A DNA stretch of 64,000 nucleotides from NCBI GenBank assembly GCA_010356995.1, contig ML996703.1, positions 310,001 through 374,000 of the forward strand, given 5' to 3'. Numbering within the stretch: the first letter of the stretch is position 1; every line of letters begins with the position of its first letter. The DNA is from Trichodelitschia bisporula (Eukaryota). A program made the position numbers and the translations under genes. The notes below the pieces were generated by a model. It worked only from the letters and a program-made list of their open reading frames with translations. It made no database searches and was not told the DNA's origin. Shown here in pieces: positions 3,419 through 34,353 of the stretch.

Positions 3419-4580
3419 GTGAGGAGAGAGACGATATAATTTCGTATCTTGCCTTAGGCGTTTTGGGTTCGAAACACAGCATATTACTACATTCGCCTCT
3501 GTCGAACAGGCAAAAGCAGCATTATCAGTTATTTGGGAACCGCCCGTCTTGGTTAGGGTGCTTCTTGGGTTGGGCATTTGTGTCGGCGTGCTTTGAGTTT
3601 ACTGATACGGGAGTAGGGCGTTCACATCTTCCAAGGGCAAGGTGACCCGCGACTGCGCAGTCATGTAAAAAGAACGGCTGGAAGTCGATGGCTTGTGACA
3701 GCGTTAATTGTCCGCCCTCGTTTGCTTTGACGGTTGGTCTGCATATATTAGAGGGATTGGGCGTGGGTTGGTGTTTGTACGAATAGAGAGTGGTAATGTT
3801 TGAGTACGATAATTGATATAAGTAAGGAGCGCTGAGCTTGCTTCAACCGATCAATCGACGATGAAGTTTAAGAATGGAGTATGAGAGTCTGCGAATGTCA
3901 ATAAGTGAGCAAGGCAAGCAAGGCCATTGGCTGGCGTAACGGACAAGCTCGCCCCGCCCAGCGCCCTAACTGAGGACGGTTTAAATCGCCAAGTGATCGT
4001 GGGGTGCTGCCCCGCCGGGTCACGGACCACATCCTTCACCTTCCACTACGTCCCTAACCCTCATTATCGTACCCGCAAGACAACGAGGTCATACGACGAA
4101 GGGTCCTACGGTATCGTAGACCAGGAGCACACCCCTCCCTCGTCCCCGCGTTTCCCCGCAACGCGACCGAAACGGAGCAGCCGCATCTCGAGACAGCGAA
4201 CCTTGCTGCGACGGAACAAGCCATCCATCGACGAGTCGACAGGAGCCGTTCGAGCCGTCTACAGATGCCGTCGCGCGCGCCTCAAGCCCGCCCTCTTCCG
4301 CTACCGGCTCGCGGCCGCGATATCGCTGGTGGGATGTGCGGGATTTTGACAGTGCCTTCCTCACTGGCGATTGGGGTGTGTACGAGACGGAGACGCCGAC
4401 GGCTCGCCGACGGCTCGCTCACAACGCTCGGCGACGGATATGGCTTCTGGAAGACATACGCACGCTGCGCTCCGCTCCTTCGCCCTGTGGAGACGTGAGA
4501 GTCGCGAGTGGCAAGAGATAGAGCGCTGCGGGACGGCTGGGCGGCTTTTTGTCCGCGGTGGAAGCCGATTTCCAACCCTG

Positions 4581-7623: not shown

Positions 7624-9777
<2,154 letters not shown>

Positions 9778-10013: not shown

Positions 10014-10292
10014 ATAGAGTCTTCTGCTCGCTCAAGCCTCACCGTTCAGAAACCTGTCCACGGAGACAACAAAACAACACCACCTCCTTCACTACAGCGA
10101 AAATATCCAAGGCTTTGTACTGCGTCGTTTGGGAGTACGGGGTCTGGTAGGGAAAACCGCAGCAGATCCCATACTCCCAAGCGGCACTGAGCCTGATATT
10201 ATTGCCGTAGTGAAGGAGGTGGTGTTTGTTGCGTCGTCTCCTATTGGGAGGTCCTGGACATTGATGCGTTGAGCGGACAGAAGAGTTCCTAT
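10014..10292. repeat. Long imperfect inverted repeat / predicted hairpin (arms about 130 nt, loop about 10147-10162)
   Basis: AACACCACCTCCTTCACTAC (10076-10095) is the exact reverse complement of 10207-10226; pairing continues inward and outward with mismatches and bulges. Confidence 0.9.
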
Positions 10293-10852
10293 AATTGAGA
10301 ACTATCGGTGGGGACAAAGTGGACGTGATCTTCCTCTCCTAAACTCTGATGTTGTGTCGAACTCTGCGTCGCTCGCAGACAGTTTGCTGGTAGATAGGGT
10401 CGTGTTGGTGATGTCTATCGAAGCGCGTCCGGATGAGCGCGCCGGTGATCGCTACAAAACATTCGACCTGCCACCGCCACTCAAGAGGGACGACATCGCC
10501 CAGAAGGGACGACGGCACCCTTCCAGAGTACGGCGCCAGATCGAATGTTCCGCAGCCGTCACCGACGCGCCCATCCATTGTCCGCCAACGAAGATGCGCT
10601 GAGTTGATTATTTCGATGGAAGTGTGTTAAGCTGTTGAGCTGTGGCCCATGCACCGCCTTTTCCCCGCCTCGGGCTTGGCACCCTTGCTTGCGCGGCGCC
10701 ACCATCGGCCCGCCAAAAAGTATATATCCGGCGAACGCAACCTCACCTCGCCTCCACGTCGCCTCCCCTCCACCAACCCCCCAACCTACAATCGCTCTCC
10801 CACAACCTCACCACTCACCCACCAAAAACCCACCCTCCTCAAAAACATCACA

Positions 10853-29003: not shown

Positions 29004-30629
29004 ATGTTCCACGAAGGTGACCTGCAGTCGGGCATTGCTCTTGCAGTGCAGACATCTAAGGCCGTCTTGTGCTTCGTTACCGGTAAGCCTGGCGAGCTCG
29101 CGATCTCACAATCCCCATGCTTGTACCGACGACTGACACCTGGCAACCAGATTCCTCCCCCACAAGCACCACCTGGGAATCAGACTGGCTCCAAGCCCCC
29201 GAGGCAAGCTGCCCATCCGCTCCGTCTTCCACCCGTCTAACCCACACAGCTCGCATCCCTCCTCACTGAAACGGCCATAGCGCTGCGCATCCAAGCAAAC
29301 ACACAAGAGGCCCTCTTTCTCGCCCTCGCGGCGCACTGTGCCTTGGGCGAAGGTCCTTCTATCGCTATAATTCTGTATGTAGCCCGTGGGCTTGGCTGAG
29401 CGCTACTAATGTGTGCCAGGAACGGCCAGCTGCGCGAGCACATCCAAGCCAATGCCTCCCGCGACGAGTTCTTCGATAGAGTCAAGGCCGCCCTGGGCGA
29501 TGCACCTAAGGCGCCCGTGAGCGAGACTACCACGACCGGACGAACAGTCGAGCGCACCGGCATCATGGACCCATCCCTCGAAGCCCCGACCCCCAGCGCC
29601 CTCCCCACCCCCGCGCCCGCACCCTCCCCTCCAGCCCAAACGACCCGACCCCCCGCGCCCATCCTCTCAACCTCCCAACCCGCCGCCCGACCTCCTCCCC
29701 CTCAACCCAGCAACCCTGCCCGTCGGGCCCCTCCCCCCCCAGACCCTATCCGCGCCGAACGCGCCGCCCGCCTCGCCGCCTCCGCCGCCGCGCGACAAGA
29801 TCCTACCGCTCCCCCGCCCCCCGGACCTAATAACCCCCAACCCTCGGATTCAACAGCCTGGGCCGTGACGCAGCGCCAGCGGCTGGCGGATGCGCGGCGC
29901 GAGCGGGATAGGGTGCTGGCGCAGATTGAGGCGGATAAGGCGGAACGGAGGGCTAGGGCTGCAGCGAGGAGGGAGGGGGAGGGGGGTGTCAAGAGTGAGG
30001 CTATTCCGCTGAAGGGGAAGAAGGAGGAGGGGAAGGGGGCGAAGGTGCATTTACTGGTTCGATTGCCGGAGGGGGGTGTGCTAAGGGGTGCTTTTGACCC
30101 TGAGGCGACTCTGGGGGGGGAGGTTAGGGGGTGGATTGGGGGGCAGGGCGTGGATGGTGCGTACAATTTTCGGTTGTTGCTTCCGCCGCAGCCGGCGAGG
30201 AGGATTGAGGTGGCTGAGGAGGGGGTGCCGTTGAGGGAACTGGGTGCCCTGCCGAGTGCGACGCTGGTGCTTGTTCCTGTGAGGCGGGCGGTGGGGGTGG
30301 GTAATGGGGCGATGGGGGGGGTGTGGGCTTTCCTGATGGCGATCTGGATGTGGCTTTTGGGGGTGTTGGGGGGGGTGGGTGGTGCTCTAGGGCTTGGGGG
30401 AGCGGGGAGGGGTGGGGAGGGTATGAGGGGGGAAGAGGGTGTGGGCGAGAGTAGTGCACGTGAGGCGGCGCCGGGTGCGGGTGCGAGGATACGCGTGAGA
30501 ACGCTGGCGGATCAGAGGGCTGAGGGGGGGGAGGAGGCGCAGAGGTGGTATAATGGAAATCAGTTGAGTACGGAGCCGAGGAAGAAGGGCGAGGGGAAGG
30601 GCGAGGGGGAGGGGAAGGAGGAGGAATAG
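29004..30629 (+). CDS. UBX-domain protein (Ubx7/UBXN4-like) with C-terminal hydrophobic hairpin; 4 exons
   Basis: MFHEGDLQSGIALA start, IEADKAERR coil, LLVRLPEG..LPSATLVLVP UBX domain, WYNGNQL tail. Confidence 0.85.
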
Positions 30630-31119
30630 GGGAGAGGGAGAGGGTCTGATGTATGATTAGGAGGAGGAAATGGATGACGTTTCTTGTCACTGGCGCGATG
30701 TGTGTGAGCTACCGAGTAATAGCCTGAGGTATTATGCACGTAGTTGAGTGGTGAAAGGTACGCCATGGCTCGCACACGGCACCTTTACTACCACCTGCAG
30801 TACTACCCAAACACGCCTCTGGGACCCAGCTCCATACCTCCCCGGATCCTCCGCGCCGGCACACACACCCGGACCTGCATCTGACAACGGCCCGTACATA
30901 CCAGAATGCCAACCCGCGACCGGACGGACGACTTGTTGAGCAACCCGGCCCGATAATCGCAACCTAGTCCCAGGCGAGCGGTGCCGGCGCGGTTGCCGCT
31001 TCGTGGGAGGCAGTGAAACCTTCAGCCTTGCTCCTGACGTGTACCTTTTGTTCTTTGTCTTTGACGCCGAGACCATTCACTAGTGCCAGGCACGGGTTGC
31101 GTTTGTAGCTTTCTACGCT

Positions 31120-31509
31120 GCAACTCCGACATGAAAGCGAAGAAATCGGAGTCGCTACAAAGAGCTCGAGGTCTTGATTCGAACCGTGCCGTCTTTTTTG
31201 AAGTATTCCGTGATCTGCAGAGCAGCTAATGCGCGACAGCGCACGCACCTGAAGAGCATCGCGAAGATGGTCGAGCATAGACGCTATGCAAAGACTCGAG
31301 CGAAGTCCCTAGAATCCTCCATCTGCTCGGGTTTCTTACATAGGTTAGCGTCTATGCTTGTCCATGTTCGCAATGTTTTTCATGTGGCTGCGCTGTCGCG
31401 AATCAGGTGCTCGGCAGATCAAGGACCGGTTCAAGAGCGGTATGGTTCAAACTGTACGTTCGAGCTCTTTTCAATGGTTCCAACTTCGTTGTTTTGATGT
31501 CGGGGTTGC
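31120..31509. repeat. Long imperfect inverted repeat / predicted hairpin (arms about 180 nt, loop about 31302-31324)
   Basis: AGCATAGACGCTA (31274-31286) is complementary to 31346-31358 and pairing runs along both arms; opposite-strand ORFs give near-identical peptides (ALSRISCSADHG vs ALSRIRCSADQG). Confidence 0.92.
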
Positions 31510-31830
31510 CGCACAGGTGATGCCATACAAGATTCCCTTAGCGAACCTATCCAGACTATGATCAGTTCTGAAACGCTGGAAAAGATATAGCACTGAACCT
31601 CGGAGGGAGTGATCCTAGATGAAGTTAATGAGATAGTGGTGAAGAATCTGTTTGGTGACACAGCCGAGACGTCATCGCCGAGACATGCCAGATCTCGCAA
31701 GCAACGGTACCCGCCGCGCCAAGCAACTAAACGCCGAGTCGCCGTGAACGCCATCTCCAGCTCGACATTGAACACCGCAACAGTTCCCGCTAATCCCAGC
31801 ATCAGCGACTTCAAAGCGGCAGGCGCTTCA

Positions 31831-33304
31831 ATGCCGCCCTACGACGGCTCTCCGGCCAAGGCGCACAAGTCCGTCGTTACGCAGACGCTCGATCCGTCGC
31901 GTCTCGCCCCGGAGGATGCTTTCTACGCGCATTCCCCTCCGCGACGCCAACGCGCCCGCAGCCCGCTTGGTCTGGATGGTGCGGCGAGGGGCGACAAGAG
32001 TGAGGTTACGAGGAGACTGTCTGAGCGCAGAAGTTCGGGCAGGAGGAGGAAGAGCCAGTGGAGGAAGTTACTTTGGGTGAAGCAGAGCTGTGAGTTACGC
32101 TGGTGCCGAGGGAGGGACGTGCTCATGGATATAGATCCCGACAACTATACCGATGAATATACGTTCCTTGAACAGCTGCAACGCAACCCGCAGCTACGAC
32201 CGTACGAGTTCTGGCGGCTCGTGGCGGACTCCACTGCAATCGTCCAACACGTGTGCAGTGTTGCCATCTTCATCTGCTGCTTTACCGGAATATTCCAGGA
32301 GCGTGTCAGTCCACTCGTCATTGTTACCTGGGGAACAACTGGCACGGTTCTGGGCTGGGGCCTCTGGGACTCCTGGGTGACAAAGGCGGACGAGAAAGAA
32401 GCCGCAGCAAAGGCAGAAGAAGTGGCCAGACGAGTCACGGAAGGGGAAGACGACGACTCGATATCCGACAGCGGGTTGATAATGAAGGAGCGGAAAACTC
32501 CGAGTCTTGAACTTACGCGAAGCCCATCGGAAGAGCCGGCGCGCAATGGCCACGCTGTCCCAACGTCTCCCAATGGTGCCACCTTTCCTATATCTCCTTC
32601 CGCGGACAACTCGTCCGACGGATTCGCAACTCATGAGTACGACTCCATGGACGAAGACCATCTCCCGTGGGTACCTTCGCGGGCACAGCAGCGGCTGGCG
32701 ACTATTAAGTCCGCTCTTCTCATCTACTCCGCATTACTCGGGCTCAGCCCCATCCTCAAGTCTCTCACCAAATCGACGACCAGCGACTCGATCTGGGCGA
32801 TGAGTTGCTGGCTTTTGTGTATAAATATTTTCTTCTTTGATTACAGCAGCGGCGCTGGCGCAAAGTATGTGTATTCGCCTCTAGATGACAAACACTAATG
32901 GTCAAAGATTCCCTGCCTCTCTATCGACCAACGCTGCCCTAATGGCCTCAACGGTTCTCGCATCGCGGCTCACGTCGACCACGCATGTCTTTTCCCTCAC
33001 TCTCTTCTCCATTGAGGTCTTCGGCCTCTTCCCCGTGTTTCGGCGCCACCTCCGCCACGTGTCCTGGTCCGGCCACATTATGCTCACAATACTACTCGTC
33101 ATGGGCGCCGGCGCCGGCGTTGGCGTGACCGTAAGCGGAGGGGGGTGGAAAGCCGCCATCGTTGGCTGCGTGCTCGGGAGCATCCTCATGGTCCTGGCCA
33201 TGGGAATATGCAGCATGTGGCTGATCGGACTGCAAAAGTACAAGAACGAAATCCACGGGCCCTGGGATCCCGCGAGACCGATAATAAGACGACGCTGGGA
33301 CTGA
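31831..33304 (+). CDS. GPI2: GPI-GlcNAc transferase subunit PIG-C/Gpi2; 3 exons
   Basis: WRKLLWVKQSYPDNYTD, LSPILKSLTKSTTSDSIW, LSTNAALMASTVLASRL, YKNEIHGPWD. Confidence 0.95.
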
Positions 33305-33333: not shown

Positions 33334-34353
33334 TTACATGTACGGAAACTCGCCGTCTGGCCACCTTTGCTGGTACTCGGTCAACGTGCTCCACCCGCTC
33401 CGCGTAAGCCCGCCCCGCTCTCCAGCCTCGTTATTTTGCGCTCGCCGGAAGTCTCTCCTGAATGCACGCCCGCTAACCACCTTCAAGCTGGCCGAAGGTC
33501 CCTCGGTTCCCCAGCAAACCATCATATCGTCGGGTTCCCCCTCGATGCATCCGGCCATCCATGTCAACAGGCCTGCCAACTTGGTAATCTCCATGACGCC
33601 AGTCAAGATCACCGGCCCCCATTTCTTCAAGTACTCCTCTTTCTTCCCCATCAGTAACCGGCTGCCATCTCCACCCCACACAACCACTGTTTCCAACCCA
33701 GACACACCCTCCAGGATCCTTTTCACGACAGACACGTTCCCTGTAGACGGAGACGGGAAGCGCCAGGCCAGTAGATTGATCCGCAGCACGCGTAAACCCG
33801 GTACGTCGGTGGTCAACCGCGTGGGAACTTCAAGCCCCTCTTTGGCAAACGGCCAGTACAAGGCGGATGCGAAGCTAGGCACATTTTTGCAGATGTAGGA
33901 TTCCCAGCTCGGGGCTGTGGCGTAACATGTGTAGGTCATGTTGTCCAGTTCGCGGAGGTCGAGTTCGACGTCCCTGATTAGTGCCGCGGCGGCGGGACGG
34001 TGCTTGAAAAAGAGGTGTGCGTGCTTGGCCAGCGTGAAGCTGAAGGTATTGCCGTAGAGGACGTCGATGGGGTGTTCGGAGTGGATGCGGCGGCATGTTC
34101 GGAGGAGGGCGGTTGAGAGGTGGGGGATATAGCGGCTGGATGGTCGGGAGGCGTCTGAGTAGGGGGAGGGGTCGACGATTTGGGACGGGGTGGAGAGAAC
34201 CAGCTCATAGATTATGTTGCGGAGCTCCGCGGGGAGGCGGAAGAAGATGGATGAGTCCTGGCTATTGACTTCATGGGTCGTGGCGGAGTCGACCGCTTCG
34301 ATGTTGGGGATAACAAGGGCTGAAGTCTGCGTGATGGTCCGGGTTAAGGACAT
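33334..34353 (-). CDS. Hypothetical fungal protein with N-terminal F-box-like motif
   Basis: Intact 339-aa ORF; FFRLPAELRNIIYELVL and LLRTCRRIHSE..LY..F.F motifs typical of this broad fungal group. Confidence 0.7.
   Translation of the reverse strand: MSLTRTITQTSALVIPNIEAVDSATTHEVNSQDSSIFFRLPAELRNIIYELVLSTPSQIVDPSPYSDASRPSSRYIPHLSTALLRTCRRIHSEHPIDVLYGNTFSFTLAKHAHLFFKHRPAAAALIRDVELDLRELDNMTYTCYATAPSWESYICKNVPSFASALYWPFAKEGLEVPTRLTTDVPGLRVLRINLLAWRFPSPSTGNVSVVKRILEGVSGLETVVVWGGDGSRLLMGKKEEYLKKWGPVILTGVMEITKLAGLLTWMAGCIEGEPDDMMVCWGTEGPSASLKVVSGRAFRRDFRRAQNNEAGERGGLTRSGWSTLTEYQQRWPDGEFPYM

What the first reader, a model, noticed from the sequence alone, without database searches (positions are those of the whole stretch)
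31120..31509. Long intergenic hairpin 2: about 390-nt fold-back between the UBX gene and GPI2
Seen: arms 31120-31301 and 31325-31509 pair along their full length around a loop of about 23 nt, with regularly interspersed single mismatches and small bulges. By manual alignment G-U-compatible differences outnumber A-C ones on the plus strand (roughly 11 to 6), mildly favouring a plus-strand RNA. Transversion mismatches and bulges are not explained by RIP alone. It has no visible sequence similarity to hairpin 1 and no transposon hallmarks. Inference: a second independent long hairpin-RNA/milRNA locus able to yield several duplexes (for example UAGCGUCUAUGCUUGUCCAUG from 31346). Two such loci within about 21 kb suggest an unannotated small-RNA gene class in this genome.
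Basis: partly seen in the sequence, partly recalled or inferred. Interest (0 to 1): 0.78.

Follow-up and report, generated by a model that had tools for sequence, protein, structure and literature searches.

The report
Transcribed long fungal RNA hairpin
Between two ordinary fungal genes lies a single-copy, 390-base back-to-front duplication that is copied into RNA and would fold into one long hairpin, a plausible source of small silencing RNAs, though nothing yet shows it is more than an old, decaying duplication.

Summary
The fold-back is real: 146 pairs, -208 kcal/mol, 0 of 100 shuffles as stable. It is the longest fold-back in 864 kb scanned. No second copy, Rfam match, terminal-repeat family or RIP signature was found. 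Two runs of one sample carry spliced joints, so contain RNA, and their unspliced contigs span the hairpin; one starts inside the UBX coding sequence. Strand and ends are unknown. The genome encodes three Piwi proteins and probably two Dicers. No target was found, and 0 of 8 distant GPI2 loci carry a hairpin. Best reading (0.4): a long hairpin-RNA-like Dicer substrate, probably plus strand, in or after the UBX 3' tail. A passively transcribed neutral relic is nearly as likely (0.35); a canonical milRNA is unlikely. The scan noted similar unproven hairpins elsewhere in this genome and in another fungus. Small-RNA sequencing decides.

The parts
29004..30629 (+). UBX-domain gene upstream of the hairpin (stop at 30629; first ATG inferred)
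   Evidence: PF00789 at E 2e-08; ORFs; spliced joints at 29081/29150, 29201/29248, 29374/29420 in runs X3 and X4
30435..31624 (.). Stretch covered by unspliced contigs of the two RNA-containing runs (X3 30435-31624, X4 30718-31624); strand and true ends unknown; UBX 3' tail or a separate non-coding transcript
   Evidence: table 8
30760..30950 (.). C/A-rich stretch where G skew flips from +0.71 (UBX 3' end) to -0.43; resembles gene boundaries elsewhere in the window, but does not give a strand
   Evidence: interpretation is inference
31041..31058 (+). 18-nt U-rich motif 76 nt before the stem, also found before two tandem hairpins on contig C16; link unproven
31117..31302 (+). 5' arm of the fold-back (contains a T6 run at 31194-31199)
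31303..31323 (+). Terminal loop, 21 nt (23 nt in the centroid structure)
31324..31512 (+). 3' arm of the fold-back, with a 5-nt bulge at 31341-31345
31831..33304 (+). GPI2 gene downstream (start codon inferred); introns 32090-32134 and 32865-32907
   Evidence: PF06432 at E 1.9e-58 and 4.4e-43; spliced joints

Best explanation
An old local inverted duplication of about 185 bases is transcribed, probably on the plus strand, within a roughly 1-kb unspliced non-coding stretch that is either a long UBX 3' tail or a transcript starting just behind UBX. The RNA folds into a 146-pair imperfect rod. Dicer cuts it into several small-RNA duplexes, as with fly hairpin RNAs, rather than one precise milRNA. 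With no trans target found, the likeliest effect is in cis: cutting shortens the life of the hairpin-bearing RNA, and any loaded small RNAs match mainly the locus itself. Shown: fold, no second copy found, RNA contig cover, RNAi genes. Inferred: origin, strand, polymerase II transcription, Dicer cutting, any effect.
For: Fold far beyond shuffles. Longest of 9 fold-backs in 864 kb, in gene-dense DNA with flank GC 0.59. Unspliced contigs span it in both runs that show six intron-sized joints absent from the two DNA runs. Three Piwi loci and two tandem RNase III pairs. 118 21-nt windows have 3 or fewer unpaired bases. G-U plus G-G versus A-C plus C-C is 23:11, p=0.058, and the strand energy gap has one-sided p=0.06: a weak lean to the plus strand. 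No RIP signature, target-site duplication or terminal-repeat family. Across 6 gene-region fold-backs G-U/A-C is more lopsided than binomial, p=0.012. A perfect hairpin over 200 nt is diced by Dcl2 in Penicillium (PMC4425646, passage).
Against: No small-RNA data were available. 150 simulations of neutral decay reproduce the plus-strand energy (P=0.20) and strand gap (two-sided P=0.13); mismatch runs are random. Longest perfect helix is only 15 bp. No source or target gene: DNA searches found only the locus, and two 21-mers each gave one outside hit at 3 mismatches, about 0.4 expected by my arithmetic, whereas the fly hpRNA examples read have arms homologous to a target (PMC10317233). No hairpin or UBX neighbour at 8 distant GPI2 loci. 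RNA cover is from one sample, contigs only, and DNA carry-over is not formally excluded. The class-level asymmetry rests largely on one hairpin (10431-10576), and strand-biased mutation would also produce it (inference).
Confidence: 0.4

Rival explanations
1. Neutral relic: a fold-back made by template switching or break repair, or a lone remnant of an extinct foldback element, decaying freely and transcribed only because it lies in the read-through tail of UBX. It does nothing of consequence.
For: Energy, strand gap, mismatch runs and codon-position spread all fit neutral decay. G-U excess is not significant. No target, no conservation in distant loci. This genome makes other fold-backs, including a two-copy palindromic element in L018. 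Fold-back mechanisms are described in yeast (PMC7467729, PMC11724301; search listing and abstract start only).
Against: It has survived to 27% arm divergence with few gaps (7 of 174 columns) in compact gene-dense DNA. No family, target-site duplication or RIP signature. All strand measures lean the same way. A neighbouring hairpin shows 13:2 asymmetry.
Confidence: 0.35
2. Cis element of a long UBX 3' UTR: the rod controls stability, export or poly(A) choice of the UBX mRNA through a double-stranded-RNA binding protein or RNase III, without making functional small RNAs.
For: One X3 contig runs from the UBX coding sequence (30435) past the hairpin. Plus-strand lean. The C16 hairpins begin about 100-150 bases behind a plus-strand stop codon and share a short upstream motif. 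Two RNase III matches lie outside the tandem pairs.
Against: A contig across two features does not show one transcript (caveat). The skew flip at 30760 looks like a transcription-unit boundary. Homology to the C16 hairpins failed profile tests.
Confidence: 0.15
3. Canonical milRNA gene giving one precise mature/star duplex, as the first reader's example 21-mer at 31346 would require.
For: The 21-mer at 31346 starts with U and has 2 unpaired bases; 5' U is typical of milRNAs (PMC4425646, abstract passage).
Against: Well-supported fungal precursors are short with inter-duplex spacing under 20 nt (PMC9757828 section 11); here the stem is about 185 nt per arm and that duplex is spaced by 59 nt. 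A T6 run inside the 5' arm would stop polymerase III on the plus strand, and no run of 4 or more T follows the 3' arm up to 31624, unlike Neurospora milR-1 to -4 (PMC3547838). 31 U-starting windows are comparably paired.
Confidence: 0.07

Closest known systems
Drosophila hairpin-RNA (hpRNA) endo-siRNA loci (PMC10317233: section 7 and passages read)
   Same: Long inverted repeat inside one transcript, arms of about 200 bases, lineage-specific, in a genome with Dicer and Argonaute genes.
   Different: Fly hpRNAs are defined by Dcr-2-dependent 21-22 nt siRNAs and a precursor that rises in mutants, and the examples read carry sequence of a target gene or transposon. Neither was shown here; no source gene was found and the arms are only 69-73% alike.
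Fungal mi/milRNA loci (PMC9757828 abstract and sections 9, 11; PMC3547838 and PMC4425646 passages)
   Same: Single-copy, no Rfam match, outside coding sequence, stem-loop, near protein-coding genes.
   Different: More than four times the 43-89 nt Penicillium precursors; no downstream T run of the Neurospora polymerase III type; conservation and small-RNA support are absent or untested.
MITEs and foldback elements of filamentous fungi (defining features recalled; L018 pair is the local example)
   Same: Short non-coding palindrome with arms alike along most of their length.
   Different: No second copy, no paired terminal repeats elsewhere, no target-site duplication; lies in GC-rich genic DNA (flank 0.59) rather than the AT-richer context of the L018 pair (0.46).
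Plant MIRNA/long inverted-repeat loci born by inverted duplication (recalled, no call)
   Same: Long imperfect fold-back of a few hundred bases with drifted arms.
   Different: No founder gene is recognisable and no processing is shown.

Membership tests
hpRNA (endo-siRNA hairpin) | Long inverted repeat folding into an extended duplex | tested here: met
   146 pairs, z -15.5
hpRNA (endo-siRNA hairpin) | Both arms lie in one transcript | tested here: inconclusive
   Single unspliced contigs span both arms in X3 and X4, but contigs show neither strand nor single molecules; one sample
hpRNA (endo-siRNA hairpin) | Dicer-dependent 21-22 nt siRNAs; precursor rises in Dicer mutants | not testable with these tools
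   Only 4 runs listed, all contigs
hpRNA (endo-siRNA hairpin) | Arms homologous to a target gene or transposon (common, not universal) | tested here: not met
   Only self-matches or chance-level hits; the genome-wide DNA search is of limited sensitivity
hpRNA (endo-siRNA hairpin) | Host has Dicer and Argonaute | tested here: met
   3 Piwi matches (one with stops inside, probably introns); 6 RNase III matches including two tandem pairs read as Dicers by inference
Fungal mi/milRNA (tiers 1-2 of PMC9757828) | No Rfam, coding-sequence or transposon overlap | tested here: met
   no transposon library was available, so that part rests on copy number
Fungal mi/milRNA (tiers 1-2 of PMC9757828) | Short hairpin with minimal inter-duplex spacing | tested here: not met
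   396-nt rod; best-paired segments are 59 nt apart
Fungal mi/milRNA (tiers 1-2 of PMC9757828) | Conserved between genomes | tested here: inconclusive
   0 of 8 distant GPI2 loci have a hairpin upstream or UBX neighbour; no close relative is held
Fungal mi/milRNA (tiers 1-2 of PMC9757828) | Dominant mature/star duplex in small-RNA reads | not testable with these tools
   No small-RNA run listed
Neurospora polymerase III milRNA genes | T run immediately downstream of the milRNA, short primary transcript | tested here: not met
   T6 lies inside the 5' arm; none after the 3' arm up to 31624; on the minus strand only one A4 equivalent
MITE / foldback element | Multiple copies sharing terminal inverted repeats | tested here: not met
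   Terminal 18-mer at up to 2 mismatches: 17 outside hits against 8 for the control, none paired in inverted orientation; DNA search self only
MITE / foldback element | Target-site duplication | tested here: not met
   Only 3-base coincidences overlapping the stem ends; an old one could have decayed
RIP-mutated repeat | High TpA/ApT and low (CpA+TpG)/(ApC+GpT) | tested here: not met
   0.55 and 1.24 against window 0.67 and 1.18; usual cut-offs 0.89 and 1.03 are recalled

The most novel reading that the evidence does not exclude
This fungus has a small class (at most about a hundred loci) of unrelated, long, imperfect hairpin-RNA genes placed in or behind gene tails. They are born by local inverted duplication, some are marked by a shared U-rich upstream motif, and they are diced into multiple endogenous siRNAs: a fly- or plant-like hpRNA system distinct from short fungal milRNAs, of which this 390-nt rod is a large member.
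Probability: 0.2. Interest if true: 0.7.

Novelty: new variant of a known kind. Interest (0 to 1): 0.38.

Why it matters
Fungal hairpin small-RNA loci are poorly annotated and the trusted ones are short (PMC9757828). Natural long hairpin-RNA loci in filamentous fungi did not turn up in three full-text searches (the library lacks most subscription papers). A confirmed 390-nt endogenous Dicer substrate would show how new small-RNA genes arise in fungi, and would give a testable case of an inverted repeat that is transcribed yet bears no RIP damage. If neutral, it is a caution that even a z of -15 says nothing about RNA function.

Tried and rejected
Rfam: 0 matches at gathering score in the window; two sub-threshold matches, mir-2831 (24.5 of 90 bits) and H19_3, rejected. 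No tRNA. Transcript ends: both RNA contigs stop at 31624 with no loose end; no RNA contig is listed between there and 31866/31898, in the G-rich UBX stretch near 30317-30404, or in X4 at 30597-30717. One study only, and holes in contigs prove nothing, so neither the ends, the depths nor a link to GPI2 were used. No holder is on record as RNA; no differing letters were listed, so no sign of editing in the contigs. Coding: five ORFs over the locus have no Pfam match under E 0.09; Atlas gave nothing above 0.78 for one and nothing for another; arm differences are even over codon positions, p=0.63. A tRNA B-box-like 10-mer at 31176-31185 (minus; consensus recalled): 4 in the window against 5.2 expected. 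Homology to the C16 hairpin (L056): a shared 12-of-13 stem word and an 18-nt upstream motif looked striking, but profiles built from L056 did not find this locus at E up to 20, empirical p was 0.004-0.04 by scoring, the pair ranked 9th of 180 hairpin-half comparisons, and of 23 other motif hits only 1 had a fold of z below -3 behind it, without a blastn fold-back. Left as unproven. Homology to hairpin 1 rejected. Metagenome pattern 0 hits; phages 0; 3 viral hits limited to the searched 21-mer. A bacterial promoter/terminator scan found nothing and does not apply. The arm profile could be run only over 664 kb of held DNA, not the whole genome, and no genome-wide hairpin census was possible.

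Full report
Observation. The region 31120-31509 folds into a single rod of 146 pairs (45 AU, 18 UA, 35 CG, 30 GC, 18 GU/UG) at -208.3 kcal/mol, z -15.5, with 0 of 100 shuffles as stable. The minus strand gives -183.6, z -16.2. The loop is 21-23 nt at about 31303-31323; a 10x10 internal loop and a 5-nt bulge interrupt the stem. The arms agree at 122 of 167 aligned columns. The coordinates and general description are right.

Context. The flanking genes are a UBX-domain gene and GPI2, both on the plus strand, with short spliced introns. The window lies in a 25.8-Mb, 44-contig genome for which no relatives are held; fungal by gene content and intron form (inference). Rfam and ARAGORN found nothing. 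ORFs over the locus have no credible family.

Copy number. DNA searches of the genome with the whole hairpin and with its best 111 bases returned only the locus and its mirror; the tool warns that this does not prove rarity. Two stem 21-mers at up to 3 mismatches gave one outside hit each, neither extending. The terminal 18-mer gave 17 outside hits against 8 for the control, none as an inverted pair. A two-arm profile found only the two arms in 664 kb. There is no target-site duplication and no RIP-type dinucleotide shift, although the genome has 4 cytosine-methyltransferase matches (RID not identified). A MITE family is therefore not supported.

How common are such rods? In the window plus 80 stretches of 10 kb (864 kb), a self-blastn scan found 9 fold-backs: 3 in the window (265, 146, 396 nt), a two-copy palindromic element in AT-richer DNA (222, 189 nt), and 4 of 66-117 nt. 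Block-shuffled controls of the first 264 kb gave 0. None of 250 nt or more lies in the 800 kb outside the window, which puts an upper bound near 100 for the genome (my arithmetic). Two further fold-backs turned up in loci fetched by motif (L106, L127) and are not in that count.

Transcription. Four runs hold the stretch. X3 and X4, one sample and labelled RNA only by guess, show six intron-sized joints (five read GT..AG, one is ambiguous) that the DNA runs X1 and X2 lack, so they contain RNA. Unspliced contigs cover 30435-31624 (X3) and 30718-31624 (X4) with no differing letters. The hairpin is thus probably transcribed. Contigs give no strand, ends or level, and DNA carry-over is not formally excluded. 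The X3 contig begins inside the UBX coding sequence, which allows a 1-kb UBX 3' tail; the G-skew flip near 30760 looks more like the edge of a separate unit. The two are not resolved.

Is the fold under selection? G-U against A-C is 17:10, p=0.25. Adding G-G against C-C gives 23:11, p=0.058. In 150 simulations of a perfect palindrome decayed by the same numbers of transitions and transversions, 20% folded as well on the plus strand and 6% had as large a gap in its favour, 13% two-sided. Mismatch spacing is random (63 runs against 66.7) and the longest match run, 13, is as expected. So there is a weak plus-strand lean and no evidence of selection. Transcription-linked mutation would also favour G-U on the transcribed strand (inference), so even a significant excess would show strand rather than function. 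Over 6 gene-region fold-backs the asymmetry is overdispersed (chi-square 16.3, p=0.012; L026 dropped for fewer than 4 informative mismatches; the L018 pair p=0.50), mostly through the hairpin at 10431-10576 (13:2 on the minus strand, p=0.007).

Relatives. A stem pattern found nothing in metagenomes. GPI2 brought 8 loci at 50-84% identity in the best segment. Five have 1.3 kb or more upstream and several appear to be the same organism. None has an upstream fold-back, a UBX match or a match to the intergenic DNA. They are too distant to test conservation of the fold.

A possible family. A 13-base word of the inner stem recurs with one mismatch in both arms of a 117-nt hairpin on contig C16 (z -9.9). 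That hairpin is one of two tandem units behind a stop codon, each preceded by a 10-mer whose only other occurrence in 864 kb is 76 nt before this hairpin. Independent tests did not confirm homology: no profile hit at E up to 20, empirical p 0.004-0.04 before correction, rank 9 of 180, and no enrichment of hairpins behind 23 other motif hits. It stays a lead.

Mechanism. The genome has 3 Piwi loci and two tandem RNase III pairs. A transcript carrying this rod offers 118 21-nt windows with 3 or fewer unpaired bases, though no perfect helix over 15 bp. I judge a multi-duplex hpRNA-like Dicer substrate slightly the likeliest reading (0.4), acting mainly in cis because no target was found. A neutral, passively transcribed relic is close (0.35), a UBX 3'-UTR control element less so (0.15), a canonical milRNA least (0.07).

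Literature seen. PMC9757828: abstract, sections 9 and 11. PMC3547838: passages. PMC10317233: passages and section 7. PMC4425646: passages. PMC7467729 and PMC11724301: listing and abstract start only. No supplements were opened; the locus tables of PMC9757828 could hold long fungal hairpins that would lower the novelty. Searches for natural long hairpin-RNA loci in fungi gave 1 nematode paper, 0 papers and 1 unrelated paper. RIP cut-offs, MITE features, the B-box consensus and plant MIRNA origin are recalled.

Earlier notes. The scan has recorded comparable, unproven hairpin loci on other contigs of this genome and in another fungus. They are unchecked and were not counted as support.

Verdict. 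Real, rare, apparently single-copy and probably transcribed; function unshown. A variant of the hairpin-RNA kind at best. Interest 0.38.

Noticed in passing
window 10431-10576 (minus strand): A third fold-back, 147 bases from hairpin 1. On the minus strand it is a near-perfect rod (-118 kcal/mol for 10420-10590, z -11.6) with 13 G-U against 2 A-C (p=0.007). It is the best sign in the window of a fold tied to one strand, and could share a transcript with hairpin 1 (10020-10284), diverging from the next gene's promoter.
   Followed up: partly
L056:3120-3640 (G000:C16 about 503.1-503.6 kb): Two tandem paralogous units behind a stop codon, each with a hairpin; the second is a clean 117-nt miRNA-like stem (z -9.9) that extends to about 240 nt. 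Single-copy, no Rfam match.
   Followed up: partly
L018:5972-6193 and 8492-8680 (G000:C5 about 506-509 kb): Two copies, 76% alike, of a palindromic element in AT-richer DNA; MITE-like.
   Followed up: partly
L044:1816-1902 and 4433-4504: An 87-nt hairpin (4 G-U, 0 A-C) with a 79% alike second copy 2.6 kb away.
   Followed up: no
L106:986-1153 (G000:C13): A 168-nt fold-back, 69% arm identity, no Rfam match.
   Followed up: no
L127 (G000:C5 about 16-17 kb): An inverted repeat spanning about 960 bases with 85% alike arms near the contig start.
   Followed up: no
window 30006-30046: A 41-base stretch of the UBX coding sequence matches another contig of the same runs with 4 differences; probably a low-complexity coincidence.
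   Followed up: no
window 31690-31830: The GPI2 start is uncertain: a branch-point-like CTAAT followed by CAG lies near 31790, and upstream ATGs are out of frame with 31831 (read).
   Followed up: no
window 33334-34353 (minus): A DUF7730/2EXR-family gene converges on GPI2; RNA contigs join the two and skip 33404-33487.
   Followed up: no
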